Of a stretch of 64,000 bases of DNA, positions 8,810 through 59,608 are shown piece by piece. Location of the stretch: positions 2,501-66,500 of the forward strand of contig JAQTUZ010000003.1 of the NCBI GenBank assembly GCA_028707065.1. The letters are read 5' to 3'. The translations under genes were made by a program, and so were the position numbers. Under the pieces are notes generated by a model that made no database searches, was not told the DNA's origin, and worked only from the letters and a program-made list of their open reading frames with translations. Position 1 is the stretch's first letter, and each line of letters opens with the position of its first letter. Origin of the DNA: Patescibacteria group bacterium (lineage in GTDB: Bacteria; Patescibacteriota; Patescibacteriia; Patescibacteriales; WJLG01).

Positions 8810-8823
8810 TTAACGTTAATTTT

Positions 8824-8886
8824 GCCGTGCTAGAGTCCGCTTTGCCTGCCCTGAGCTTGTCGAAAGAGGCGGAGACTGCGCCGGAA
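8824..8886. repeat. GC-rich repeat (module family A2, reverse orientation)
   Basis: ...ccctgagcttgtcgaaagaggcggagactgcgccggaac is paralogous to 9125-9180. Confidence 0.65.
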
Positions 8887-9047
8887 CAAAAGTTTGCAGA
8901 AGGTCTGGTAGCTGGTATTTAGTAGTTGAGTCTTTTTGTCATCCTGAGCGCCGCGCGAAGGATCTATTAAGTAAAAATTGAATTTAGATTTAATTATCTT
9001 ATAACTGCCGTTGGTTGCATTATAAAAAATAATAATGTCAGGAATAG

Positions 9048-9093
9048 ACCCACCCCGTCTCGCGAGGCGCGAGCCACCCCTCCCAAGAGGGGA
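9048..9093. repeat. GC-rich two-hairpin repeat unit (family A, reverse)
   Basis: acccaccccgtctcgcgaggcgcgagccacccctcccaagagggga. Confidence 0.85.
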
Positions 9094-9124
9094 ATAAAAA
9101 AAGTTGAAGAAATAATTAATCTCG

Positions 9125-9180
9125 GCGCAGTTCCGACTTGTCCCGAGCTTGCCGAGGGAGGCGGAGACTGCGACGGAACC
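9125..9180. repeat. GC-rich repeat (module family A2, reverse)
   Basis: gcgcagttccgacttgtcccgagcttgccgagggaggcggagactgcgacggaacc. Its reverse complement shares ccgcctc...ggacaagtcgg with the pgk and metG inserts. Confidence 0.7.
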
Positions 9181-9303
9181 AATCTATCTCCGAGAAATAT
9201 TCTCTCAGGAATGAAATCCTATAATTAAGGCGGTAGAAATTAGGACATAAAGCGATTTATAGTCGCCGCGAGGTGCGACTTCTATGAATGACAAAATAAA
9301 ATT

Positions 9304-11518: not shown

Positions 11519-12745
11519 ATGAAAAAACTTTTTTTAGACGGTTTACTGGTCGCTGTTTTGGCGGTTTTTTCATTGGCGATTTGCGGCAACCGCGCTTTAG
11601 CGCAAGATAATTATGAAATAGCTTCGGCAACCACCACTCCGGCGGCTATTAATTTATACAACACGGACAATCCGGCCGTGGTGGGATGGAACGCGACAGG
11701 TACGGACAACCAAGGATTCAAGGTTGTCTGGTCAAAAAATGCCAACCCGACTTATCCCATCCGCTATGGCGATCACGTTGATAATATTCCCAGCGCCAGC
11801 GCGCATACTGATACTTTAACCGCCTTTTTGGGCAATGGAACTTATTTTGTGCGGGTTTGCAATCTGGTCAGCAATACTTGCGGAGTTTATTCCAATCAGA
11901 TCACGGTTCAATTCGGCGTGCCCGCAATCCCGGCCACTTCCACGACTCCGGTCGCCACTTCCACGCCGGTGGCGTGCAATATGATCTATGCTCCGGTTTG
12001 CGGCGCGGACGGACAGACTTATACTAACAGTTGTTTTGCCGATGCGCATAAGGTGACGGTTAAATCTAACGGCGCTTGCCCGGCCGTGGCGACGACGACG
12101 CCGGTTATTGCCACCACCACCCCGGTTTTATCGCCGGTTTCGGACATCGACAAGATCAATCAAAGCGCCGAGGATCTTTATCAAAATAAGATCGGCAATA
12201 TTTTGGGCCGGCTCGATACGGCGGTCGATCAGGCCAAGGAACAACAGGCGCAAAATAATTATTTGACCAAGCTGGAGCAGGGATTGGCCCAGCCGATCTC
12301 CGCGGCGAGCGCCAACTCGGTCACCGCTTTTATCGCTTACGGGGTTGATGCTAATACGCAACTTCTTGGCTCGGGACAGCGCGCGGCAGCGGTTTATTCT
12401 TTCAAGCAAGCTTATGGCAAATTGCCGACCGCTCAAGCTGATTTTGCCGATCTCATCAAGATCGCCAATGGCCGCTGGCCGTCAGTGACTTCCGCAACTG
12501 CCGAAGCGCTGGCCAAGGCGCAATTCAAGAAAATTTATCTGCGCGATGCCGATCTGAATAATCCGCATGACGCGGCCGCGATCGTGATAATCGCTTACGG
12601 TTTGCAGCAGCAGGCGAAAAACAGGAATCTAAAATCAGAAGCGGCGGCCCTGCATACTTTTAAAGCGATCTTCAATCGCTTGCCCTCGGGCACGGTTGAT
12701 TGGAATACTTTGGGAGCCATAACTTATTCAGGATCAACGAGATAA
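11519..12745 (+). CDS. Secreted protein with a Kazal-type domain
   Basis: Signal peptide (LLVAVLAVFSLAICGNRALA). CNMIYAPVCGADGQTYTNSCFADAHKVTVKSNGAC matches the Kazal C-x-PVCG-x-G-x-TY-x-N-x-C pattern. Confidence 0.75.
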   Translation: MKKLFLDGLLVAVLAVFSLAICGNRALAQDNYEIASATTTPAAINLYNTDNPAVVGWNATGTDNQGFKVVWSKNANPTYPIRYGDHVDNIPSASAHTDTLTAFLGNGTYFVRVCNLVSNTCGVYSNQITVQFGVPAIPATSTTPVATSTPVACNMIYAPVCGADGQTYTNSCFADAHKVTVKSNGACPAVATTTPVIATTTPVLSPVSDIDKINQSAEDLYQNKIGNILGRLDTAVDQAKEQQAQNNYLTKLEQGLAQPISAASANSVTAFIAYGVDANTQLLGSGQRAAAVYSFKQAYGKLPTAQADFADLIKIANGRWPSVTSATAEALAKAQFKKIYLRDADLNNPHDAAAIVIIAYGLQQQAKNRNLKSEAAALHTFKAIFNRLPSGTVDWNTLGAITYSGSTR

Positions 12746-23254: not shown

Positions 23255-23640
23255 ATTATTAGACTGAGTGTAAGGGATATTATACTCAGTACTTTTATAT
23301 TATATAAAAGGGCTGATTCGTCGTCAAGCCCTTGGTTTTTAAAATCTATTTAATGTTTTAGTGTATTCACTATTGGATCCTGATGTTACAATACTACACT
23401 ACCCGTATTTCCGGATAACCATGGGTATCGAAAATATTTATTTTTTTATTATAATTTAACAATATTATATTTTGTCTTTTTAGTTCTAATTTTAGGCTAT
23501 GTTGTTAATAGCGATTCATGTATATTTTGTTAATATTAGCCATAAAATAGATACTTAGGCCCTAAAAGGCCCTATAGCGCTTGAGAACTGATTTTCAGTA
23601 TTCCACCTCATCTTTTAAGATAAATTTTATAGTCAGGCGC

Positions 23641-23829
23641 TTAATTGGTCATCATTACTCCTAAAATATGGATAGCTGGAACGAAATTCAGTAAAAATTT
23701 GATAACCAAGAGAAAGATGCCGACAACTAAGATTAAAGCAACTAAGATGGCCAGAAAGAAAACGAATTTAAATATTCTTTCCGATGATTCATTGCTCATA
23801 AAAAAATAATGCTTGGTGATTTTGAACAA
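23641..23829 (-). CDS. Possible small membrane protein (62 aa)
   Basis: ORF with one long hydrophobic helix. No SD and no clear promoter. Confidence 0.3.
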   Translation of the reverse strand: MFKITKHYFFMSNESSERIFKFVFFLAILVALILVVGIFLLVIKFLLNFVPAIHILGVMMTN

Positions 23830-23940
23830 CTTATCGATTTGGACCTGTTATCAGGTTTTTAAACCCGACGATCACGACCCAAATCTGCCTGCCTGCCGGC
23901 CGGCAGGCGAATTGTATCACAATCTCCAAATATATTATAG

Positions 23941-27101: not shown

Positions 27102-28592
27102 TTATGTGTTATGCGATTTCGGTTTCATCAGCGGAAATAACTGGCATTCGCGGATCGGTTTATCGACCAGAAAGGCGAATAAGCGTTCGCCAAAACCAAA
27201 CCCGCAGGTAGGCGGCATGCCATGTTCGAGCATCTCCACGAATTCCCAATCCGGCATCATCGCTTCCTTGTCGCCGCGGTCGATCAATTTTTGCTGTTCC
27301 TCAAAGCGCTGGCGCTGTTCCAGCGGATCATTCAATTCCGAATAGCCATTGCCAATTTCCGAACCGGCGATAATGACCTGAAAACGCTCGGTCAGCTCGG
27401 GATTACCGGGCAGTGATTTAGCCAGCGGCGAAACAAGCTTGGGATGATTGACCGCAAAAGCCGGGCCAACGATCTTTTTCCGGCAGAATTTCCAAAGCGT
27501 GTCAATCAGGCGTTCCTTGCTATCGCCTTCATATTTAACATTCAACTCGGCTAATTTGTTTTTAATCTTTTCCACGTCCGCGTCCAAAACATCAATTCCC
27601 GTCTCATCTTTGATCTTGGCGCAATAATCAATTCTGGGCCAATCCCCTTTTAAATCGTATTCCTGATCCTTGGTTTTAAATTCGGTGGTGTTGAAAACAT
27701 CTTTGGCGATTTTTTGATAAAGCTCCTGGACAATCTTCATCCCGTCTTCATAGTTCGCATACGCCCAATAAAATTCCAGATTGGTGAATTCCTGAACGTG
27801 ATCGGGAGAAGATCCTTCATTGCGGAAAACCCGGCCGATTTCGAAAGTCTTTTCAAAGCCGCCGGCCATCAATCTTTTTTGCCAGAGCTCGCCGACAGAA
27901 ATTCTTAAATAAAGATCAAGATTAAAATCATCATGATGGGTGCGGAACGGATTGGCTTCGGCGCCGCCGGTAGTATTTTCCAAGCTGGGAGTTTCCACTT
28001 CCAAAAATCCTTTTTCCTGCATAAAACCGCGCACCGTGTTCCAAAATTTTGCTTTCTTGACGAAGAGATCGCGAACTTCCGGATCGGTCAGGAGATCCAA
28101 ATATCTGAGGCGAAATCGTTCATCTTCGTTTTCCAAACCATGCCATTTTTCCGGCAAAGGCAGAAGAGCTTTGGCTAAAATTTTCCAGCTCGAAACCATC
28201 AAGCTTTTTTCGCCTTTGTGGGTGACAAAACAAGTGCCGGCCGCCTCGATAAAATCGCCCATATCGATCAGCTTGGTAAATTTTTTGAATTCTTCGAGGC
28301 CGATGTCTTTTTTGGAAAATGCTAATTGCATCTTGCCGGTGCCGTCAAAAAGTTCGATAAAAGTCAGATTGCCAAATTCCCTTTTGATCATTATTCTTCC
28401 CGCGAGAACAATTGTTTCTTTGGCGGCTTCCAGATCGGAAAAATCCGTCAAAGCGGCAAGGATCGAATGAGTTCGGGGTGATTTATCCGGAAAAGGATTG
28501 CTGCCGGATTTTTTTAGTTCCTCAAGTTTTTTCAAGCGGTCTTCTCTCTCGCCAGGAGTATGTTCAGCGCCATTTTGTTTTTCGTTTGACAT
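27102..28592 (-). CDS. lysS: Lysyl-tRNA synthetase (class II)
   Basis: OB-fold anticodon domain (VLAGRIMIKREFGNLTFIELFDGTGKMQL). Class II motifs FRNEGSSPDHVQEFT and GFGFGERL. Confidence 0.95.
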   Translation of the reverse strand: MSNEKQNGAEHTPGEREDRLKKLEELKKSGSNPFPDKSPRTHSILAALTDFSDLEAAKETIVLAGRIMIKREFGNLTFIELFDGTGKMQLAFSKKDIGLEEFKKFTKLIDMGDFIEAAGTCFVTHKGEKSLMVSSWKILAKALLPLPEKWHGLENEDERFRLRYLDLLTDPEVRDLFVKKAKFWNTVRGFMQEKGFLEVETPSLENTTGGAEANPFRTHHDDFNLDLYLRISVGELWQKRLMAGGFEKTFEIGRVFRNEGSSPDHVQEFTNLEFYWAYANYEDGMKIVQELYQKIAKDVFNTTEFKTKDQEYDLKGDWPRIDYCAKIKDETGIDVLDADVEKIKNKLAELNVKYEGDSKERLIDTLWKFCRKKIVGPAFAVNHPKLVSPLAKSLPGNPELTERFQVIIAGSEIGNGYSELNDPLEQRQRFEEQQKLIDRGDKEAMMPDWEFVEMLEHGMPPTCGFGFGERLFAFLVDKPIRECQLFPLMKPKSHNT

Positions 28593-28650
28593 ATAAACAA
28601 AAAATCTTTCCCCTCCCGTAAGAAAGGAAATTGCTAATATTTATGTAGTT

Positions 28651-28679
28651 ATTTTAATTCATTTTAAGTTTGTTGTCAA
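28651..28679 (-). promoter_or_regulatory. Promoter TTGACA-17-TAAAAT for lysS
   Basis: On the minus strand, TTGACA (28679-28674), a 17-nt spacer, then TAAAAT (28656-28651). It lies about 55 nt upstream of the lysS ATG. Confidence 0.55.
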
Positions 28680-28808
28680 AATAACATGACGCGAATCTAC
28701 GGATTGTTCGCGAATACTACAAATTATTTATCGAATTGTTAAAGTATAATTTGTTAATCTGTTCGCAGTATTCGCATTATATTTTGTATTTCAAATTTTG
28801 ATTTTAGC

Positions 28809-28845
28809 TAAAAAAAGCCCTCGGAAAAAAAATAGGGCCGAGGGC
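28809..28845 (-). terminator. Rho-independent terminator (minus strand)
   Basis: gccctcgg (28817-28824) pairs with ccgagggc (28838-28845). On the minus strand the hairpin is followed by T7. Confidence 0.75.
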
Positions 28846-29026
28846 AAGATGCGAGTGGAAAGAAAGGAAGGAACGGGGTGGGAAGATAGAGAGAAGGAGC
28901 GAAAAAAAATTGATTGAAAAAGGGGGAAAGGAAGAGAAAAGAGAGAAGAGAGAGAAAAAAAGTTAAAAGGGTCGGGGAAGGAGGTTGAGCGGGAGGGGGG
29001 GTAAATGGGCTTGGGAATGGGGTGAT
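28846..29026. repeat. Polypurine/polypyrimidine tract (~180 bp, about 85% purine on the plus strand by hand count)
   Basis: ggaaagaaaggaaggaacggggtgggaagatagagagaaggagcg...gggggaaaggaagagaaaagagagaagagagagaaaaaaag...ggggaaggaggttgagcgggaggggggg. I counted only about six C on the plus strand. Confidence 0.85.
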
Positions 29027-29143
29027 ATCAATCAATTTAATTTAAAGGTGCGGGAGATTTTTTGTTTTTGGTGTTTTGCTTTTGGTGTTTTTTGCGGGGG
29101 TGATTAAGAACTGTTTTTTATTCTGGCGGTTCAGGCGCCAGCT

Positions 29144-29185
29144 AAAAGAAAAACAGGTGAGGTCGGCCGCTTTCGCGGCCACCTG
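29144..29185 (-). terminator. Rho-independent terminator (minus strand) with GAAA tetraloop
   Basis: Minus strand: caggtggccgc-gaaa-gcggccgacctcacctg followed by tttttctttt. Confidence 0.7.
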
Positions 29186-29252
29186 CTTCCCCGCCCCCCG
29201 ATCAAAATCGGGGGTTGGCGGTTTTCCCCGACCCATCCTTTACAGTGAAGCA

Positions 29253-29336
29253 TCATACGCATAAAATGCGTATTATAATTGCCTCTAGGAAGGGCCAAGC
29301 AAGAATGACCGTTGTCGCGATGAAAATAACTTTCAT
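29253..29336 (-). CDS. 27-aa hydrophobic peptide MKVIFIATTVILAWPFLEAIIIRILCV
   Basis: Too short for the ORF track (shorter than any ORF it lists). AGGAGG (29347-29342) lies 5 nt upstream of the ATG. A terminator sits about 70 nt downstream, and the flanks are GC-rich and structured. Confidence 0.45.
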   Translation of the reverse strand: MKVIFIATTVILAWPFLEAIIIRILCV

Positions 29337-29465
29337 GCTCCCCTCCTTTCAAGGAAGACTTTTACAGCACAAGGGCATAGAAGCACTATACCCGCCCCCT
29401 TTTTATCATAGTCCTAAAAATGTGTCAATATTGACAAAACAATGAATATTAATCATTCTTGGGCA

Positions 29466-29498
29466 ACAAAAAAAGACGGAACATCGCCGTCTTTTTTG
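29466..29498. terminator. Bidirectional terminator downstream of greA
   Basis: A-run, aagacgg/ccgtctt stem, then T6. Confidence 0.8.
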
Positions 29499-29542
29499 AA
29501 TATTTTAAAGTATAAATTTATTTAACTAATTGGCCAATCAAC

Positions 29543-30016
29543 TTATTCAATCCCCAATATTTTATATTTCATCTCCCCTTTTGGTGTTTCCACTATTACT
29601 TCGTCCCCTTTCTTGCGCCCCAGGAAAGCCATGCCCAGCGGCGATTCGTTGGAGATCTTGCCTTCGCCCGGAGCCGCTTCGTTAAAACTGACGATCGAGA
29701 AATTCTTTTCTTCGCCGGTTTTCACGTTTTGCGCCTTGATCTTCGAACCCATGGCCGCTTTGCCATTGCCATTGCCATGACCGTCGCTTTCCACGACAGT
29801 TAAATTTTTTAACAGATTCGAGAGCTCGATGATCCGGCCGTCATTAAAGGCTTGCGCGTCTTTGGCTTCATGATATTCGGCGTTCTCGCTTAAATCGCCC
29901 AACTCTTTGGCTTTCTCGATCCGATCAGCGATCTCTTTTCTCTTGACGTTAACCGCGAGATCCAACTCTTCCTGCAATTTATTAAACCCTTCTTGAGAAA
30001 TGATTTGATCGGGCAT
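29543..30016 (-). CDS. greA: Transcription elongation factor GreA
   Basis: GFNKLQEELD...ELGDLSENAEYHEAKDAQAFNDGRIIEL is canonical GreA. A Gly/Asn-rich insert lies between the two domains. Confidence 0.93.
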   Translation of the reverse strand: MPDQIISQEGFNKLQEELDLAVNVKRKEIADRIEKAKELGDLSENAEYHEAKDAQAFNDGRIIELSNLLKNLTVVESDGHGNGNGKAAMGSKIKAQNVKTGEEKNFSIVSFNEAAPGEGKISNESPLGMAFLGRKKGDEVIVETPKGEMKYKILGIE

Positions 30017-30034
30017 AGCTAAAATTATAAATTA

Positions 30035-30072
30035 TGCCGACGCGAGGTCGGCATCCCGAGCTTACCCCGGGA
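30035..30072. repeat. Double-hairpin GC-rich repeat (second copy of 236-273)
   Basis: tgccgacgcgaggtcggcatcccgagcttaccccggga. Confidence 0.75.
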
Positions 30073-30166
30073 TAAATGATGAATGCTAAAATAATCCCGA
30101 TTGATAAATTTATCAACCATCAACTAACGTTTTTTTAATTTTTTATAGTCTTAAATATAGTACAAA

Positions 30167-31723
30167 CTAGGAACAAGCGCAAGCCCCCCTCCGCTCATGA
30201 TAAATCGCGGCCGCGGCCAGCAATAAAAAGCCGATTCCCAAAGGATGATTAGTGTAAGGGCTGAAGAAGCTGACAATAGTTATCAACAAGAGGCCGGCGC
30301 TTAATCCCCAGGCGAGCCAAGTTTTAATTTTCCAGGCATCCTTAATGACTTTACCGATCAGTAATAAATAAGCGAGCAGGCCGAACAAGCCAAGCTTCAA
30401 CCAGATATCCAGCCAGCCCCATTCGAAAGCATAGGTGGTGTAGGTTCCGCCCGGGCTGGCAGCCAAAATGCGCGGATCGCTGGCGCGGTAAGTGATCGTC
30501 GTACCAAAACCATCGCCCCAAACCGGATCATTGCTGATTTTTTGCCATAAAGGCGGCAACAAGGAATAGCGCGAAGCCAGAGCGGCTTCATTGGAAATTT
30601 TCCCGGCGCGATCGGCCAGGGCCCGGGTAATGTCAAAATCGATGCTTGGTTGGGGAAAAGGAAAACGGGCCACGGCAAAAATAAGCGCGAGGCTCGCGAT
30701 CAAGGAAATAAAAAGAAGCGAGATCAGGGAAAAAAGTTTTTTCCAGCCATAATTTTTAGCGGTCAGCCAGGCGTAGAAAATGAAAACGGCCGCGGCGCCG
30801 ACCCAAAAACTGCGGGAAAAACTGATCGCCAATGTTCCGATCATCGCCGTTCCGGCGGCGGCGGCGAAGATAATCTTGCGCCGGCTTTTCTTGATTTCTT
30901 CCCAAAAATGGTTGACGGCGAACAAACCGAGAAACAGCGAGAGCAGAACATAGATCTGCGACTGCATAAAAATTCGCACAAAGCCGTTGGGCATCACTGT
31001 TATTTCTCCGACCAGCGTGTCCCTCACCCATTGATATATCCGATCGGTTAAAAGCCAATGCCAAATGCTCGAATCGGGAAAAGCATGAGTGAAAAAGAAA
31101 AACAATAAAAAAGTTTTAAAACAAATCCAGGCCGTGCCGGCGGCCAGCAGGCGCCAAACCGGCGCAAAGGGCCGGTCGCCGGCGATCGCCGGATTGAAGA
31201 AAGTTTCATAAAAAGGAAAGATCAAAAGGAAAAACAGCCAGCCGTTGGCGTCAAAAAAAATATTTTGCCAGTCATTACCGCGGAAATATCCGATCAGGAC
31301 GCCCAAGACGAGAAAAAAACCAAGGATCAGAAAATAAGAAAAATTAGCCGTCTTGAAAAAATTAGTCTGCAAGAATATCGAATGCTGTTTTTTTTGTTTG
31401 TCCAGCAAAGCGAATAAAAAATCTTTGCTCCAAACCGAAATTACCACCAGCCATAAAGCGATGCGCAAAGATATTTTTACCGTCCCAAGATCAAGATGCA
31501 GAAGATAGCCTTGCGAGCCGATGAACAATTCTAACAAAATTATCCAAACGCCGTATTTGATATTAACGAGCGACAAGATCAAGGTCAACAAAACTACCAA
31601 AGCAAAAACCCAATGATCGATATCTAAAAAAAGATGCCCGAAAAAGGACATTAATTCGACAATTGCGATTACCAAAATGATAAAATAAAACGCGGGATTG
31701 AAAATTTTTTTTAAATCTTCCAT
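30167..31723 (-). CDS. O-antigen ligase-like polytopic membrane protein
   Basis: More than 10 TM helices, a central loop block LAISFSRSFWVGAAAVFIF typical of Wzy_C/O-antigen ligase, and a glycan-gene neighbourhood. Confidence 0.6.
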   Translation of the reverse strand: MEDLKKIFNPAFYFIILVIAIVELMSFFGHLFLDIDHWVFALVVLLTLILSLVNIKYGVWIILLELFIGSQGYLLHLDLGTVKISLRIALWLVVISVWSKDFLFALLDKQKKQHSIFLQTNFFKTANFSYFLILGFFLVLGVLIGYFRGNDWQNIFFDANGWLFFLLIFPFYETFFNPAIAGDRPFAPVWRLLAAGTAWICFKTFLLFFFFTHAFPDSSIWHWLLTDRIYQWVRDTLVGEITVMPNGFVRIFMQSQIYVLLSLFLGLFAVNHFWEEIKKSRRKIIFAAAAGTAMIGTLAISFSRSFWVGAAAVFIFYAWLTAKNYGWKKLFSLISLLFISLIASLALIFAVARFPFPQPSIDFDITRALADRAGKISNEAALASRYSLLPPLWQKISNDPVWGDGFGTTITYRASDPRILAASPGGTYTTYAFEWGWLDIWLKLGLFGLLAYLLLIGKVIKDAWKIKTWLAWGLSAGLLLITIVSFFSPYTNHPLGIGFLLLAAAAIYHERRGACACS

Positions 31724-40273: not shown

Positions 40274-40972
40274 TTATTTTTTGCCTTCCGTTTTAGCTTC
40301 GGGCTTGGTTTCGGTTTTTGCTTCGCCCTCAACCGCGGCTTCTTCGCCGGCGACGCCGGTTTCCACTGCCGCGACTTCCGCGCTTTCGGCCGGAGCGGTT
40401 TCAAACACTTCTTCCGCTTTCGGTTCGGCAACGGTCGCCACCACATCATCGGTTTCACGGAGCAACTTGATTCCTTTGGGTAATTTCAAGTCGTGAATTT
40501 TAATGACATCATCAAAAGTATTAAGCGGTGAAATGTCCACGTCAAGATGATTGACCAAGTCTGACGGCAAGCATCTGACTTCGATTTCGTTAATGCTTCT
40601 GATCAATACGCCGGATAATTCTTTGACCGCCTTGGACTCGCCGATAAAGTGCAGCGGAATTTCGGCATGGATCTCTTTGCTCATATCGACTTCATAAAAA
40701 TCAACGTGGATCAAAGTATCCTTGACCGGATCGCGCTGCTCCTCTTTGATTAAAACCTTTCCCTCCGCTTTGCCCGCCACGATCAGATCGATCAGGGTCG
40801 ATTCGCCGGCGGCGGCGACGAGTTTGCGCAGATCATTAACCGAGGCCTTGATCAGCTTGTTGGTTTTAAGATGCGGGCCATAAACAACCGCCGGAATAAA
40901 TCCGGACTTAATCATTTCTTTAACGTTTTCTTTTTTGTCTCTTTTTTGCGCTATTAACTTCAGACCGTCCAT
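40274..40972 (-). CDS. rplY: 50S ribosomal protein L25 (Ctc form)
   Basis: LKLIAQKRDKK...GFIPAVVYGP, the two-domain Ctc length, and an acidic/Ala-rich tail. Confidence 0.9.
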   Translation of the reverse strand: MDGLKLIAQKRDKKENVKEMIKSGFIPAVVYGPHLKTNKLIKASVNDLRKLVAAAGESTLIDLIVAGKAEGKVLIKEEQRDPVKDTLIHVDFYEVDMSKEIHAEIPLHFIGESKAVKELSGVLIRSINEIEVRCLPSDLVNHLDVDISPLNTFDDVIKIHDLKLPKGIKLLRETDDVVATVAEPKAEEVFETAPAESAEVAAVETGVAGEEAAVEGEAKTETKPEAKTEGKK

Positions 40973-41023
40973 ATTTAATTTGTTTCTAGTTAACCGTTGG
41001 CGATAACCAAACAGACTAATTAG

Positions 41024-56860: not shown

Positions 56861-59608
56861 TCATAACACTCTGCCCTTGATGATCTCAATATCGGCGTTG
56901 TCGTTGATCACCACCGTATCTCTTCTTTGCAATTCATTGCCCAGGATCTTTTTGGCAATATTGTCTTCGATCTTATCTTGGATCAAGCGGCGCAAGGGAC
57001 GGGCGCCGAATTTAGGATCAAAGCCCAGATGAGCCAGCGTCAATAATCCGCCATCGCTTATTTCCAATCCCATTCCCTTGCTTTTCAGCATTTCGGCCAC
57101 ATCCGAGAGCATTAAACGGGCGATAGCGACGATATCATCTTCGGAGAGCGGCTTAAAGACGATAATGCCGTCGAAACGATTGATCAATTCCGGCCGCATC
57201 ACTTGGCTTAACTGCTCGTTGATCAAAGAATTTTTGATATTCTCAAGCGGCGCGCCTTTATTCATTTCATCTTGGATGAATTGCGAACCGGCATTGGAAG
57301 TGGCGATGATAATGCTGCTGGTGAAATCGATGGTTTGGCCTTGGCCATCGGTCAGGCGCCCGTCGTCCATCACCTGCAAGAACAGATTGAAAATTTTGGG
57401 ATTGGCTTTCTCGAATTCATCCAGCAAAATAAGCGAAAACGGTTTTTGCCTGACCGCTTCGGTCAGATAACCCTTAGTACCGTCGGTATCGCCGATCATT
57501 TTCTTGATGCTCGCCTCTTCCTGATATTCGCTCATATCCAATCTGACCAGCAGATCTTTTTTATGAAAATAAACCCGGGCGATAGTTTTCGCCAATTCGG
57601 TTTTTCCCACGCCGGTCGGCCCCATAAAAAGAAAACTGGCGATCGGCCGCTTGCCTTCGCGCATTTCCGTGCGGGCGCGGCGCAAGCTATTAGCCACCAT
57701 ATCGACTGCTTCCTTCTGGTCGATCATATATTTATGGATCTCTTCTTCCAAATTCAATAATTTCGCGCTTTCCTCGCCGCCCAGATCCTGCACGGGAATT
57801 TCCGTGAGCTGATTAATGGTCAGGGCAATATCGTTCTTGTCGCAAATATATTTTTTTCCCTTATGTTCGCCGGCGACTCTGACGGCGGTTTTTTCCAAAA
57901 TTTGAATCGCCTTTTCCGGCAAAGATATTTCATGGATATATTTTCCGGCCAGCTCGACAGCCGCTTCGATCGCGTTGTAGGAAAAGAAAATATTATTGCG
58001 CGCTTCCAAATAGCCGATCTTGCTCTCCAGAATCTGGATCGCCTGATCGTTATCCGGCTCGGCAATTTTCAAGCGGGTCATCACCCGGCCGATCGCCGCT
58101 CTTTCCACGAACTGGACATAATTTTGGTCGTCAGCCGTGGCCAAACAGCGGATAAAGCCTTTTTCCAATTGCGTCGCCAGCACTTCGGAAAGTTCCAAAC
58201 TGCCTTCGGCTCCGGCGGTGATGCCGATCAAATTTTCCAAATTATCGATAAAAAGAATAATGTTGCCGGCGCGATTTATTTCGTCGATGATCGCCAACAA
58301 GCGGGCTTCGGCATCCGCGGCCGTGGCTCCCGAAACCAACCGGGCGATATCCAGTTCGATCAACCGCTTATCGCGCATAAACTCCGGTACTTTTTCTTCA
58401 GTAACCATTTCCCGGGCAATGCCCTCGATGATCGTCTTTTTTCCCACCCCTTTCGGGCCAGTCAGTAAAACGCCATTTGATCCGGTTTTGAAAGCATCAA
58501 AAACCGCGGCGATTTCTTTGGCTCTGGCCACGCAAAGCTGCAATCTTCCCCATTTGGCGGCTAAAGTAAGGTCGTAGCCGTAATTATTCAAGATTGGAGT
58601 TGCTACGGCGGTATACGCCCGATCCATCACTGTTTTAGGCTTGAAAACCGCCAATTTCCGGTATAATTTATAATTAGCCACTTGCTGTTCGTTGATGCGA
58701 AACCAGGCAATGGCATTTTTAATTTTATTGGTATCGATTTTTAAATCCAAGAGAATTTCCTCGAGAGTCGGACTACTGGCAACACAAGGTAAGAGCAAAT
58801 TCAGCACCGTGGTGTTGTCTTCCTTGAATTCATAAGCCTCGACAAAACCTTGCATGAGAATTTCCTTAACTTCGTTAGAGATCACCAGATCCGCTTCCTT
58901 TTTAAGCGTTTGAGGCAGCGTTTTGAGCTGGCTGCTCAATCTTTTCACTAAATCATGCCCGCTGACATTAAGACGGCTCATCAGGATAGATATTTTTACG
59001 GAACCCAGCATGGCATAAAATAAATGCAACGAAGTAAGTTCCGGATTTTTTAATCTCAGGGCTACTTGATAAGCATCCTCGATGATCGCCAATGTTTTAT
59101 CGCGAAAGGTCAGGGAAACGTCCAGCCGTTTTTTATAATGGCGCAATTCATTCCAATTGTTGGGATAAATTTTTAACTCAACTAATTTAAATTCTTTGAT
59201 CCGGGCTTCGTCATCGCGTGCTTTATCGGCCCGATAGATCAGAAACATCAGCCCCAGGAACCCGATCCAAAAAAATAAAATAAAAATATTTTTTTCCCGC
59301 CAGAAATATAATATTTTATTGACCAGATCAGCCTGCTGATTCTGCCAAACCCAAAAAACGAGCGAACCTAAGCCGCCGATAAACAAGAGCAGGGCCATTA
59401 GATCCAGCAATAAATCCAGAAAACGCCGGACTTGGCGCAAAAAAATCATCGCGCGGTTGATCCGCAACCCCCAATATAAAAAATTGCCCTGATAAAAAAG
59501 GCCTTCGCCTAAGCCGGCGCAATTAGGGCAAGAAAAATTCTTGTCATTAACGCCCGATCCTTGGCAAGTGGGGCAAGTAATAAAAGATATGTTATTATTT
59601 TCCGCCAT
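56861..59608 (-). CDS. Clp/Hsp100-type double AAA+ ATPase with N-terminal DnaJ-type zinc finger and TM segments
   Basis: CPTCQGSG and CPNCAGLG (CxxCxGxG twice), two to three TM helices, Clp-N-like repeats, a D1 P-loop GPKGVGKKT with Walker B LFIDNL, and D2 GPTGVGKTELAK with LLDEFEKA. Confidence 0.85.
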   Translation of the reverse strand: MAENNNISFITCPTCQGSGVNDKNFSCPNCAGLGEGLFYQGNFLYWGLRINRAMIFLRQVRRFLDLLLDLMALLLFIGGLGSLVFWVWQNQQADLVNKILYFWREKNIFILFFWIGFLGLMFLIYRADKARDDEARIKEFKLVELKIYPNNWNELRHYKKRLDVSLTFRDKTLAIIEDAYQVALRLKNPELTSLHLFYAMLGSVKISILMSRLNVSGHDLVKRLSSQLKTLPQTLKKEADLVISNEVKEILMQGFVEAYEFKEDNTTVLNLLLPCVASSPTLEEILLDLKIDTNKIKNAIAWFRINEQQVANYKLYRKLAVFKPKTVMDRAYTAVATPILNNYGYDLTLAAKWGRLQLCVARAKEIAAVFDAFKTGSNGVLLTGPKGVGKKTIIEGIAREMVTEEKVPEFMRDKRLIELDIARLVSGATAADAEARLLAIIDEINRAGNIILFIDNLENLIGITAGAEGSLELSEVLATQLEKGFIRCLATADDQNYVQFVERAAIGRVMTRLKIAEPDNDQAIQILESKIGYLEARNNIFFSYNAIEAAVELAGKYIHEISLPEKAIQILEKTAVRVAGEHKGKKYICDKNDIALTINQLTEIPVQDLGGEESAKLLNLEEEIHKYMIDQKEAVDMVANSLRRARTEMREGKRPIASFLFMGPTGVGKTELAKTIARVYFHKKDLLVRLDMSEYQEEASIKKMIGDTDGTKGYLTEAVRQKPFSLILLDEFEKANPKIFNLFLQVMDDGRLTDGQGQTIDFTSSIIIATSNAGSQFIQDEMNKGAPLENIKNSLINEQLSQVMRPELINRFDGIIVFKPLSEDDIVAIARLMLSDVAEMLKSKGMGLEISDGGLLTLAHLGFDPKFGARPLRRLIQDKIEDNIAKKILGNELQRRDTVVINDNADIEIIKGRVL

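What the first reader, a model, noticed from the sequence alone, without database searches (positions are those of the whole stretch)
28846..29026. 180-bp polypurine/polypyrimidine tract with its own terminator
The plus strand is about 85% purine by hand count, with only about six C, and is rich in GGA, GAAGGAG and GGAGG words. The minus strand is correspondingly CU-rich with several CCUCC(U) anti-SD-like words, and it ends in a strong minus-strand terminator (28845-28809, T7). The upstream terminator at 29185-29144 implies a separate transcription unit. The 75-codon minus-strand ORF is a low-complexity P/F/L/S artefact that reads through the terminator. Possibilities include a CU-rich non-coding RNA, an RNA that titrates a purine- or pyrimidine-binding factor, or an H-DNA/triplex-forming element. 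I have no precedent to name.
Basis: partly seen in the sequence, partly recalled or inferred. Interest (0 to 1): 0.6.

Follow-up and report, generated by a model that had tools for sequence, protein, structure and literature searches.

The report
G-free RNA tail between greA and lysS
The purine-rich stretch is real, but it is only half of a 265-base, almost guanine-free and structure-free tail of a small, previously undescribed RNA gene that one group of Falkowbacteria-like bacteria carries between greA and lysS; its base make-up is kept in most relatives while its sequence is not, and its function is still a guess.

Summary
Window 28846-29026 is 85.6% purine on the + strand (6 C), a 5.8-SD outlier. 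On the minus strand it ends in an 8-bp GC hairpin plus U7.

It is only the C/U-rich half of a 265-nt segment (28846-29110) that, read on the minus strand, is 4% G and essentially unstructured: A/C-rich first, then C/U-rich.

This segment is the 3' tail of a clade-specific unit inserted into the otherwise tight greA-lysS pair of Falkowbacteria-like Patescibacteria. The unit has a conserved promoter, a ~290-nt structured core with an 18-29-codon hydrophobic ORF, three covarying hairpins, the tail, a terminator, and then a separate lysS promoter.

- Fourteen lineages carry the unit.
- Nine keep a bipartite tail with G <=6%, although the sequences are unalignable and partly built from tandem repeats.
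- Five have ordinary A-rich tails.
- Two relatives lack the unit.

I found no separate promoter, no plus-strand signals, no conserved reading frame, and no excess of anti-SD or GGA words. H-DNA potential is not conserved. No Rfam family matches.

Best reading (about 0.35): a composition-selected, ribosome-free, single-stranded RNA tail serving as a Rho-type loading and termination/insulation zone ahead of lysS. Main rivals are a trans-acting sponge RNA and a neutral, slippage-prone spacer.

The parts
28846..29026 (-). C/U-rich tract as flagged (polypurine on the + strand).
   Evidence: 85.6% purine on the + strand with 6 C. It contains a 47-nt uninterrupted pyrimidine run.
28846..29110 (-). 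Full G-depleted, unstructured tail (265 nt): an A/C-rich part at 29110-29058, then a C/U-rich part at 29057-28846.
   Evidence: Composition is A 22%, C 38%, G 4%, U 35%, against 29% G at 4-fold sites of neighbouring genes on the same strand. MFE is -7.9 kcal/mol against -66 +/- 13 for 300 random window segments. It is the top G-poor segment of the window. There are 30.6 YC dinucleotides per 100 nt against a background of 11.6 +/- 3.2.
28810..28845 (-). Terminator T2: 8-bp GC-rich stem, 13-nt loop, U7.
   Evidence: Read; folds at -15.1 kcal/mol. The stem sequence is conserved in L001, L002, L100 and L103, and a variant is present in L090, L102 and L105.
28908..28917 (-). 3' arm (UCAAUCAAUU) of a 10-bp long-range stem enclosing about 110 nt of C/U-rich loop.
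   Evidence: Invariant in the window, L001 and L100. It is the only predicted pairing inside the tail. There is no covariation, so the stem is unproven.
29028..29037 (-). 5' arm (AAUUGAUUGA) of the same long-range stem.
29111..29153 (-). U-run, hairpin C (CUGGCG/CGCCAG) and A-run. The U-run and A-run can pair and extend the hairpin.
   Evidence: Present in all 14 lineages with different arm sequences.
29154..29185 (-). Hairpin B. Together with the following U-run it is terminator-like (T1).
   Evidence: Folds at -19.4 kcal/mol. The arms covary across lineages. The U-run is displaced 8-14 nt in L001, L003, L107 and L108.
29195..29214 (-). Hairpin A (CCCCCGAU/AUCGGGGG).
   Evidence: The arms differ in nearly every lineage but always pair.
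29253..29336 (-). 27-codon hydrophobic ORF (MKVIFIATTVILAWPFLEAIIIRILCV) with the SD GGAGGGG at 29346-29340.
   Evidence: Equivalent ORFs of 18-29 codons are present in L002, L003, L004, L086, L090, L100, L102, L107 and L108. The SD and start codon are lost in L001 and L105 and appear degenerate in L106 and L109. No Pfam hit.
29373..29393 (-). 5' hairpin of the transcript (GGGUAUAG...CUAUGCCC), followed by the conserved sequence UUGUGCUGUA.
29400..29437 (-). Promoter of the unit: palindrome TTGTCAATATTGACA containing the -35 TTGACA (29428-29423), a 17-nt spacer, and the extended -10 TGaTAAAAA (29408-29400).
   Evidence: Identical layout in L001-L004, which were found through LysS rather than through the motif. 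It recurs in metagenome loci.
28651..28679 (-). Context: a separate lysS promoter, TTGACA-17-TAAAAT, downstream of T2.
   Evidence: Scores 11/12. Found in every lineage scanned whose held sequence reaches lysS.
29469..29497 (.). Context: greA terminator, a bidirectional hairpin with flanking A and T runs.

Best explanation
**Shown**
- The polypurine tract is the template-strand image of the C/U-rich half of a 265-nt RNA tail that is nearly G-free and structure-free (window 29110 to 28846, minus strand).
- The tail belongs to a clade-specific, roughly 590-nt transcription unit that sits between greA and lysS.
- In order, the unit has a strong conserved promoter, a structured core with a tiny hydrophobic ORF, three covarying hairpins, the tail, and a strong intrinsic terminator. 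lysS then has its own promoter.
- What recurs across lineages is composition (C>G everywhere, G <=6% in nine lineages, A/C-rich then C/U-rich) and length (190-350 nt), not sequence.

**Inferred**
- Selection keeps this stretch single-stranded and free of ribosomes. It has almost no start codons and no SD-like words.
- The only established bacterial reader of long, C>G-biased, unstructured, untranslated RNA is termination factor Rho.
- I therefore propose that the tail is a Rut-like loading zone. Together with T2 it would form a fail-safe composite terminator and insulator that stops transcription from the strong unit promoter before it reaches the lysS promoter.
- Because only composition would matter, the sequence is free to turn over by replication slippage.
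For: **Strand and unit**
- The promoter, hairpins and terminators are conserved on the minus strand only.
- Hairpins A, B and C fold in all 14 lineages with different arm sequences.

**Insertion**
- The greA-lysS gap is 5-100 bp in about 65 of the 80 Patescibacteria loci, but 700-950 bp in the LysS-found unit-bearing loci and longer where further genes are inserted.
- It is the largest intergenic gap of the window, where the median is 80 bp.

**Rut-like properties**
- G is 4% against 29% at neighbouring 4-fold sites, P about 1e-25.
- C/G is 4-32 in nine lineages and above 1 in all 14.
- MFE per nt is 0 to -0.06 in eight of those nine (-0.126 in L106), against -0.25 for background. None of 300 random window segments is as unstructured.
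- YC density is 30.6 per 100 nt against 11.6 +/- 3.2.
- The tail has 0-3 start codons where about 12 are expected, and no GGAG/GAGG.
- Coding strands of this genome are G>C, so the tail has the opposite sign.
- Rut sites are described as C>G-biased regions of low structure, optimally 60-90 nt, read through YC-binding clefts with A and C preferred. Rho can also boost weak intrinsic terminators (PMC12360218).

**Composition rather than sequence**
- Tails are unalignable between subclades.
- L004 is built of 11-nt and 15-nt tandem arrays. L001 has no repeats yet is equally G-poor.
- Lineages whose tails contain more G carry extra hairpin/U-run terminators in the same spacer.
Against: - Whether these genomes encode Rho could not be tested. 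No rho was found in the roughly 1 Mb held, which is uninformative.
- Two good intrinsic terminators already flank the tail, so a Rho zone looks redundant in a streamlined genome.
- Five unit-bearing lineages have tails with 9-15% G and ordinary YC density.
- Two relatives lack the unit altogether (L005, L104). The property is therefore dispensable.
- The fixed order, A-rich then C/U-rich, is not explained by Rho loading.
- No other transcription unit in the window ends in such a tail, so it is not a general terminator design of this organism.
- There are no transcript data.
Confidence: 0.35

Rival explanations
1. Trans-acting low-complexity RNA. The tail, alone after processing at the extended hairpin C or as part of the full-length RNA, acts as a single-stranded decoy for an RNA-binding protein. 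Candidates include an S1, cold-shock, KH or Hfq-type protein, Rho itself, or even the OB-fold anticodon-binding domain of LysRS. Alternatively it acts as a generic pyrimidine strand that masks purine-rich Shine-Dalgarno regions.
For: - The tail is a long, accessible single strand capped by a protective terminator hairpin.
- The conserved two-part layout, A-rich then C/U-rich, could be two binding modules.
- The window, L001 and L100 share sequence islands, including AUCACC and a 10-bp stem that displays about 110 nt of C/U loop.
- Any purine-rich 12-18-mer, such as the small-ORF SD or the lysS leader arm, finds a -15 to -20 kcal/mol partner in the tail.
Against: - There is no conserved seed, and anti-SD words are not enriched.
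- Duplex energies show no own-versus-foreign specificity.
- There is no separate promoter.
- The C/U part is absent in five unit-bearing lineages.
- No candidate binding protein was identified.
Confidence: 0.2
2. Functionless spacer. The region between the unit and the lysS promoter is neutral simple sequence that arose once. It is kept low-complexity by continuing replication slippage and unequal exchange, with no selected role.
For: - There are tandem arrays in L004 and L090 and micro-repeats in the window.
- Sequence turnover is complete between subclades.
- The C/U tract has been lost in five lineages and the whole unit is absent from L005 and L104.
Against: - The spacer stays 190-350 nt in all 14 unit-bearing lineages, in genomes whose median intergenic gap is 80 bp.
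- G-avoidance has the same strand polarity and the same A-rich then C/U-rich order in nine lineages. This includes L001, which has no detectable repeats.
- Substitutions between the window and L001 almost never create G (3 of 43).
- The known transcription-associated mutation bias would deplete C on the sense strand, not G (my own knowledge).
Confidence: 0.2
3. Cis-acting 3' region of a toxic small-peptide mRNA, in the manner of hok, tisB or aapA1. C/U-rich tail segments fold back on the strong SD of the 27-codon hydrophobic ORF, or the tail sets the mRNA's half-life, keeping the peptide untranslated.
For: - The ORF encodes a small hydrophobic peptide and has a strong SD (GGAGGGG).
- The SD can be masked by two conserved C/U-rich elements: GUCUUCCUU upstream, and GCCCUUCCU inside the ORF.
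- In the MFE fold of the window and L090 transcripts the SD region pairs with the tail.
Against: - No antisense or divergent antitoxin promoter is conserved.
- The unit is single-copy and syntenic.
- The C/U tail persists where the ORF start is lost (L001, L106) and is absent where the ORF is intact (L003, L107, L108), so there is no co-occurrence.
- Pairing is not lineage-specific.
Confidence: 0.1
4. DNA-level element. The homopurine-homopyrimidine duplex forms H-DNA or a triplex (or a G-quadruplex on the + strand). This would modulate supercoiling or promoter activity at lysS, or stall replication or transcription.
For: - The window has a 47-bp pure pyrimidine/purine run with a 10+10 mirror repeat.
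- The + strand at 28990-29026 has five G3+ runs.
Against: - The longest pure runs are only 11-21 bp, and mirror arms are <=6 bp, in L002, L086, L090 and L100.
- The A/C-rich half is not purine/pyrimidine-biased, yet it shares the G-depletion.
- G-runs are not conserved.
- The distance to the lysS promoter varies from 0 to about 150 bp.
Confidence: 0.05
5. The plus strand is the functional one. It would give either a purine-rich RNA that sponges CsrA or 30S subunits, or a small basic (K/R/E-rich) protein.
For: - There are 11 GGA and 2 GGAGG on the + strand.
- An ATG immediately after the T2 stem opens short K/R/E-rich ORFs in the window, L001 and L002 (and my own reading).
Against: - GGA and GGAGG are not enriched over composition.
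- No plus-strand promoter lies upstream and no terminator downstream before 29469. No antisense promoter is conserved.
- Antisense reading frames are broken into two or three frames in 13 of 14 lineages.
- G-U pairs in the hairpins fit the minus strand.
- No csrA was seen, which is uninformative.
Confidence: 0.03

Closest known systems
Rho utilisation (Rut) sites / Rho-dependent terminators (for example lambda tR1, trp t')
   Same: Long (at least 60-90 nt), C>G-biased, YC-rich, poorly structured, untranslated RNA downstream of a gene, followed by a pause or termination point.
   Different: - It is far longer and purer than described Rut sites.
- It is two-part, A/C-rich then C/U-rich.
- It is flanked by two canonical intrinsic terminators.
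- Rho itself is not shown to exist in these genomes, and no 3'-end data are available.
C-rich / UCCC-motif regulatory RNAs of Gram-positive bacteria (RsaE/RoxS class)
   Same: Accessible pyrimidine-rich segments able to pair with G-rich Shine-Dalgarno regions, and a terminator hairpin at the 3' end.
   Different: - Those RNAs are about 100 nt, have their own promoter, and present a few conserved C-rich motifs in loops.
- Here there is no conserved motif, no enrichment of anti-SD words, no own promoter, and about 200 nt of low-complexity sequence.
Protein-sponge RNAs (CsrB/RsmZ; CrcZ with A-rich Hfq/Crc motifs; the long isoform of EutX/Rli55)
   Same: A repetitive, non-coding RNA whose function could lie in many degenerate binding sites. 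It may be made only as a read-through isoform past an internal terminator-like hairpin.
   Different: - Sponges carry a recognisable repeated motif (GGA in loops, AANAANAA) and have a known partner protein.
- Here no word is over-represented beyond composition, except in the tandem arrays of L004, and no partner is known.
Type I toxin mRNAs with internal or 3' anti-SD elements (hok, tisB, aapA1)
   Same: A tiny hydrophobic ORF behind a strong SD that conserved C/U-rich elements can sequester, within a long structured untranslated RNA.
   Different: - No antisense antitoxin was found.
- The locus is single-copy and syntenic.
- The tail and the ORF do not co-occur consistently.
H-DNA-forming homopurine-homopyrimidine mirror repeats
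   Same: A 47-bp pure purine/pyrimidine run with a 10+10 mirror repeat in the window.
   Different: It is not conserved in relatives. The conserved property is G-depletion of one strand, including a part that is not purine/pyrimidine-biased.

Membership tests
Rho-dependent terminator / Rut site | C>G-biased RNA of at least 60-90 nt. | tested here: met
   C 38% and G 4% over 265 nt. C/G is 4-32 in nine lineages and above 1 in all 14. Criterion taken from PMC12360218.
Rho-dependent terminator / Rut site | Little secondary structure, and untranslated. | tested here: met
   MFE is -7.9 kcal/mol for 265 nt against -66 +/- 13. There are 2 start codons against 12.4 expected and no GGAG/GAGG. No frame is conserved.
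Rho-dependent terminator / Rut site | The organism encodes Rho. | not testable with these tools
   Only 64 kb of this genome and about 11 kb per relative are held. There was no rho hit in them.
Rho-dependent terminator / Rut site | Rho-dependent (bicyclomycin-sensitive) 3' ends downstream of the site. | not testable with these tools
   No transcript data are available.
CsrB/RsmZ-type CsrA sponge | Many GGA motifs, over-represented and presented in hairpin loops of a transcribed RNA. | tested here: not met
   GGA occurs 11 times against 14.4 expected from composition. The GGA-bearing strand has no promoter or terminator.
Anti-Shine-Dalgarno mimic / C-rich seed sRNA | Conserved or enriched CCUCC/UCCC-type motifs. 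| tested here: not met
   Counts are at or below the block-shuffle expectation in all lineages. CCUCC is absent in L002, L004 and L100.
H-DNA (intramolecular triplex) element | An uninterrupted homopurine-homopyrimidine mirror repeat with arms of roughly 10-15 bp or more, conserved. | tested here: not met
   The window has 10+10 arms in a 47-bp run. L002, L086, L090 and L100 have arms of <=6 bp and runs of <=21 bp. Formation in vitro was not tested.
Type I toxin-antitoxin locus | A small hydrophobic peptide with a structurally masked SD. | tested here: met
   A 27-aa hydrophobic ORF. The SD is complementary to two conserved C/U-rich elements. Toxicity was not tested.
Type I toxin-antitoxin locus | A cis- or divergently encoded antisense RNA antitoxin. 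| tested here: not met
   The only antisense promoter-like site (29239-29267) is window-specific. None is conserved in eight lineages.
Any curated RNA family (Rfam 15) | A match to a covariance model. | tested here: not met
   There were no hits at gathering scores in the 64 kb. In 28550-29560 nothing came anywhere near a family threshold at E <= 10.
Protein-coding gene (either strand) | A conserved reading frame or a domain match. | tested here: not met
   No Pfam hit for the 75-aa ORF. 15 of 20 indels between the window and L001 are not multiples of three. Antisense frames are fragmented in 13 of 14 lineages.

The most novel reading that the evidence does not exclude
The tail is a new kind of regulatory RNA domain whose information lies in composition, not sequence. 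It would be a roughly 200-350-nt G-free single strand with an A/C-rich module and a C/U-rich module, released from or carried by a small-ORF RNA. It would titrate a single-strand RNA-binding factor (Rho, S1, a cold-shock or KH protein, or the anticodon-binding OB fold of the neighbouring LysRS), or blanket purine-rich ribosome-binding sites in these ultra-small bacteria.
Probability: 0.15. Interest if true: 0.75.

Novelty: new variant of a known kind. Interest (0 to 1): 0.45.

Why it matters
Almost nothing is known about non-coding RNA or transcription termination in Patescibacteria (CPR), which cannot yet be grown alone.

This locus is a clean natural example of a long RNA segment in which base composition and lack of structure recur across lineages while the sequence turns over completely.

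- If it is a Rho entry zone, it would give a first sequence-level handle on factor-dependent termination in CPR bacteria. It would also be an extreme natural Rut site useful for biochemistry.
- If it is a decoy RNA, it would be a new class of low-complexity regulator.

It also has a practical consequence. Gene callers place spurious proline/phenylalanine/leucine/serine-rich or lysine/arginine/glutamate-rich ORFs on this intergenic stretch. Such calls should be removed.

Tried and rejected
- **Known RNA families.** Rfam gave no hit at gathering thresholds on the whole window, and a permissive scan of the region gave nothing. No tRNA or tmRNA was found. I considered SRP RNA because of a GGAAGCAG motif and a UGUAA loop. 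I dropped it: no covariance-model hit, and the motif is absent in L004.
- **Anti-SD mimic.** Word counts against block shuffles show no enrichment.
- **CsrB-like.** GGA is not enriched and there are no plus-strand signals.
- **Coding on the sense strand.** No Pfam hit and the frame is not kept.
- **Coding on the antisense strand** (a charged N-terminus plus a G/U-encoded hydrophobic C-terminus). Only L004 has one long frame; all others are fragmented.
- **Internal promoter for the tail.** None was found in eight lineages.
- **Co-evolved pairing** of the tail with the small-ORF SD or with the lysS leader hairpin arm. Own and foreign tails pair equally well.
- **H-DNA or G-quadruplex as the conserved feature.** Neither is conserved.
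- **Replication origin or terminus signal.** GC skew simply follows gene orientation.
- **Searches for rho, csrA and hfq.** There were no hits, which is uninformative. Ten of the larger window proteins were scanned against Pfam, and none is Rho.
- **Literature.** Searches on Rho or structured RNAs in CPR bacteria found nothing usable.
- **Data losses.** Two of the GreA-homologue look-ups returned no DNA because the sample file was too large.
Full report
**1. The observation**

Window 28846-29026 has 79 G, 76 A, 20 T and 6 C on the + strand, which is 85.6% purine. In 180-nt sliding windows the maximum is 0.872, against a window mean of 0.506 and SD of 0.063. The second-best region of the 64 kb reaches only 0.678.

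On the minus strand the tract runs into GCCCUCGG-(13 nt)-CCGAGGGC-U7 (28845-28810), which folds at -15.1 kcal/mol. The hairpin plus U-run at 29185-29144 and the 75-codon ORF 28808-29035 are also as described. Pfam identifies the flanking genes as a class II lysyl-tRNA synthetase (27102-28592, -) and GreA (29543-30016, -).

A separately assembled Logan contig from run SRR22315508 is identical to window 28733-30258, so the tract is not an assembly artefact.

**2. The anomaly is bigger than flagged and is best described on the RNA-sense strand**

Read on the minus strand, everything from 29110 to 28846 (265 nt) is almost free of G: A 22%, C 38%, G 4%, U 35%. Four-fold degenerate sites of the six neighbouring genes on the same strand have 29% G, giving a binomial P of about 1e-25. 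It is the top-scoring G-poor segment of the window on either strand.

The first 53 nt are A/C-rich (A 57%, C 30%). The remaining 212 nt are C/U-rich (C 41%, U 42%).

The RNA is predicted to be essentially unfolded, at -7.9 kcal/mol. Random 265-nt pieces of the window fold at -66 +/- 13, and none of 300 is as weak. The tail contains 2 potential start codons where 12.4 are expected, no GGAG/GAGG, and 30.6 YC dinucleotides per 100 nt against a background of 11.6 +/- 3.2.

**3. Genomic context and relatives**

LysS relatives identify the organism as a Falkowbacteria-like member of the Patescibacteria. A 100%-identical GreA lies on a 133,919-bp NCBI MAG contig labelled 'Patescibacteria group bacterium'.

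In about 65 of the 80 related loci greA and lysS are 5-100 bp apart, an apparent operon. In the window and its closest relatives the gap is 700-950 bp. It is the largest intergenic gap of the window, whose median is 80 bp.

Pyrimidine-rich tracts on the lysS strand occur at the same place in L001, L002 and L004 only.

**4. Architecture of the unit**

Reading these gaps shows one conserved architecture on the lysS/greA strand. In order:
- the greA terminator;
- a promoter, TTGTCAATATTGACA-N15-TGnTAAAAA, with a perfect -35, a 17-nt spacer and an extended -10 (window 29437-29400);
- a 5' hairpin and the conserved sequence CUUCUAUGCCCUUGUGCUGUA;
- a strong SD and an 18-29-codon hydrophobic ORF (window 29336-29253, MKVIFIATTVILAWPFLEAIIIRILCV);
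- hairpins A and B;
- a U-run, hairpin C and an A-run;
- the tail;
- terminator T2;
- a separate lysS promoter, TTGACA-17-TAAAAT (28679-28651).

A metagenome scan with the promoter pattern and look-ups of GreA homologues added further instances: L086, L090/L085, L100/L083/L103, L102, L105, L106, L107, L108 and L109.

Hairpins A, B and C fold in all 14 distinct lineages although their arm sequences differ. Hairpin A, for example, reads CCCCCGAU/AUCGGGGG, GCCCCC/GGGGGC, CCCGGGC/GCCCGGG or UCCCUAUU/AAUAGGGG. Together with the promoter and terminators, this fixes the minus strand as the RNA strand.

No Rfam family matches the region or anything else in the window.

**5. How the tail behaves across lineages**

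- Nine lineages (window, L001, L002, L004, L086, L090, L100, L102, L106) have G of 1-6% and C/G of 4-32. Their MFE per nt is 0 to -0.06, except L106 at -0.126, against -0.25 for background. In eight of the nine the best 100-nt window reaches 81-93% pyrimidine; L102 reaches only 71%, so its C/U bias is weaker.
- In these nine the order is always A(/C)-rich first and C/U-rich second. The A-rich part is 41-195 nt long in the lineages measured.
- Five lineages (L003, L105, L107, L108, L109) have A-rich tails with 9-15% G, no C/U tract and more predicted structure. By eye they contain extra hairpin/U-run elements in the spacer.
- In all 14, C exceeds G and the spacer is 190-350 nt long.
- Two relatives that nest among the unit-bearing lineages lack the unit. 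L005 is sister to L004 in a LysS tree. L104 has a GreA 86% identical to the window's.

The sequences themselves are not conserved between subclades:
- L004's tail is made of 11-nt (AAAACAACAAC x6.4) and 15-nt (TTCCTTCTTCCACTC x9.9) tandem arrays.
- L090's A-rich part is a degenerate array.
- The window has only 2-3-copy micro-repeats.
- L001 has no repeats, yet is just as G-poor.

Between the window and L001, substitutions are almost all C/U/A exchanges. Only 3 of 43 involve G, and 15 of 20 indels are not multiples of three.

The window, L001 and L100 share a few islands. One pair is AAUUGAUUGA (29037-29028) and UCAAUCAAUU (28917-28908), which can close a loop of about 110 nt of C/U-rich sequence. 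These arms are invariant, so there is no covariation evidence for the stem.

**6. What it is not**

- *Not a separate transcription unit.* No promoter-like site lies between 29144 and the tract, in the window or in seven relatives. In L001, L003, L107 and L108 the U-run sits 8-14 nt from hairpin B and immediately before hairpin C, whose stem it can extend by pairing with the A-run. 'T1' is therefore terminator-like in the window but not a dependable terminator across the family.
- *Not coding.* Neither strand keeps a reading frame. Public gene calls over this stretch differ between assemblies: a sense-strand ORF in one and an antisense ORF in another.
- *Not an anti-SD mimic.* CCUCC-type words are at or below the block-shuffle expectation everywhere.
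- *Not CsrB-like.* GGA occurs 11 times against 14.4 expected, and there are no plus-strand signals.
- *H-DNA is not the conserved property.* The window (47-bp run, 10+10 mirror repeat) and L001 could form it, but L002, L086, L090 and L100 have runs of <=21 bp and arms of <=6 bp.
- *No specific pairing partner.* Duplexes of the tail with the small-ORF SD or the purine arm of the lysS leader hairpin are as good with foreign tails as with the cognate one.
- *No link to the small ORF.* The C/U tract does not co-occur with an intact small ORF.

**7. Most likely mechanism**

*Shown.* This is a minus-strand, non-coding, ribosome-proof, structure-free, C>G tail of a clade-specific small-ORF RNA. It is ended by a strong terminator and sits just upstream of the lysS promoter. 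Composition and length recur while sequence does not.

*Inferred.* Long C>G-biased, weakly structured, untranslated RNA of at least 60-90 nt, rich in YC and with A and C preferred, is how Rut sites for termination factor Rho are described. Rho can also reinforce intrinsic terminators (PMC12360218). Coding strands in this genome are G>C, so the tail would stand out to such a reader.

I therefore rank first a Rho-loading and termination-insulation zone. With T2, it would keep transcription from the strong unit promoter out of lysS. Because only composition would matter, the sequence can turn over by slippage.

*Weak points.*
- Rho could not be checked in these genomes.
- The zone looks redundant next to two hairpin terminators.
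- Five lineages manage without the extreme composition.
- The A-rich then C/U-rich order is unexplained.

Confidence is about 0.35. The rivals are, in order: a trans-acting single-strand decoy or masking RNA (0.2), a neutral slippage-prone spacer (0.2), cis control of the small ORF's mRNA (0.1), DNA-level H-DNA (0.05), and a plus-strand product (0.03).

**8. Novelty and verdict**

The unit matches no curated RNA family, and I found no description of it in the literature searches. The tail resembles an extreme Rut site more than anything else, but membership cannot be claimed without Rho and 3'-end data.

I rate it a new variant of a known kind, of moderate interest (0.45). It is a real, clade-conserved, compositionally extraordinary RNA segment in an under-studied phylum. 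It is dispensable in some relatives and its function is unproven.

Noticed in passing
window 29253-29336 (-), SD at 29340-29346: A 27-codon hydrophobic ORF (MKVIFIATTVILAWPFLEAIIIRILCV) sits behind a strong SD. Equivalents are found in most relatives, with a shared (W/R/C/M)-P-(F/L)-L-x-x-I motif. Parts of it, such as GGCCCUUCCUAGAG, are conserved at nucleotide level even in L001, where the start codon is lost. It may therefore be a dual-function RNA or a masked, toxin-like peptide.
   Followed up: partly
window 29423-29437: A perfect 14-nt palindrome, TGTCAATATTGACA, overlaps the -35 of the unit promoter. It is invariant in L001-L004, where the spacer and flanks vary, and looks like an operator for a dimeric repressor. 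A 2-mismatch copy lies at 56952-56965.
   Followed up: partly
window 28600-28632 (-), just upstream of the lysS ATG at 28592: The lysS leader ends in a hairpin whose 5' arm is C/U-rich (UUUCCUUUC) and whose 3' arm is purine-rich (GGGAGGGGAAA). It is followed by U6 and then the start codon only 8 nt further on. It is terminator- or attenuator-like, with arm changes in L001, L002, L090 and L100 that I read as compensatory, and there is no SD at normal spacing. It could be a regulatory element of lysS.
   Followed up: partly
window 28690-28780: Between T2 and the lysS promoter there are repeated GCGAATAC/GCGAAC boxes. They include a 9-nt inverted repeat, GCGAATACT (28775-28767) and AGTATTCGC (28718-28710). 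The boxes are conserved in L001 and L100 and may be regulator binding sites.
   Followed up: no
window 28990-29026 (+): Five runs of G3 or longer (GGGAGGGGGGGTAAATGGGCTTGGGAATGGGG) fit a G-quadruplex motif on the template strand of the unit. The feature is not conserved in relatives.
   Followed up: partly
about 65 of the 80 loci L001-L080: greA and lysS are adjacent on the same strand, 5-100 bp apart, in most of the Patescibacteria species genomes sampled. This is an apparently ancient operon, which the focal clade has split by inserting the unit.
   Followed up: yes
L107 3069-4070; L102 3512-4042: In two relatives further genes have been inserted between greA and the unit. L107 has an IS200/IS605-type Y1 transposase plus a 123-aa ORF. 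L102 has a 176-aa ORF on the opposite strand. The greA-lysS gap seems to be an insertion hot spot.
   Followed up: no
window 11519-12745 (+): A 408-aa protein carries a Kazal-type serine protease inhibitor domain (E 5e-9). This is unusual for a bacterium.
   Followed up: no
window 23255-23940, 40459-41023, 8810-9303: There are three more long gaps without a called gene (686, 565 and 494 bp) in a genome whose median gap is 80 bp. No tRNA or Rfam hit occurs anywhere in the 64 kb. I did not examine these gaps.
   Followed up: no
window 28849-28917 (+): An ATG directly after the T2 stem opens a 22-codon K/R/E-rich ORF (MRVERKEGTGWEDREKERKKID). By my own reading, similar short basic ORFs start at the equivalent ATG in L001 and L002. 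This is probably a by-product of purine richness, since no promoter is present and frames are not conserved further.
   Followed up: partly
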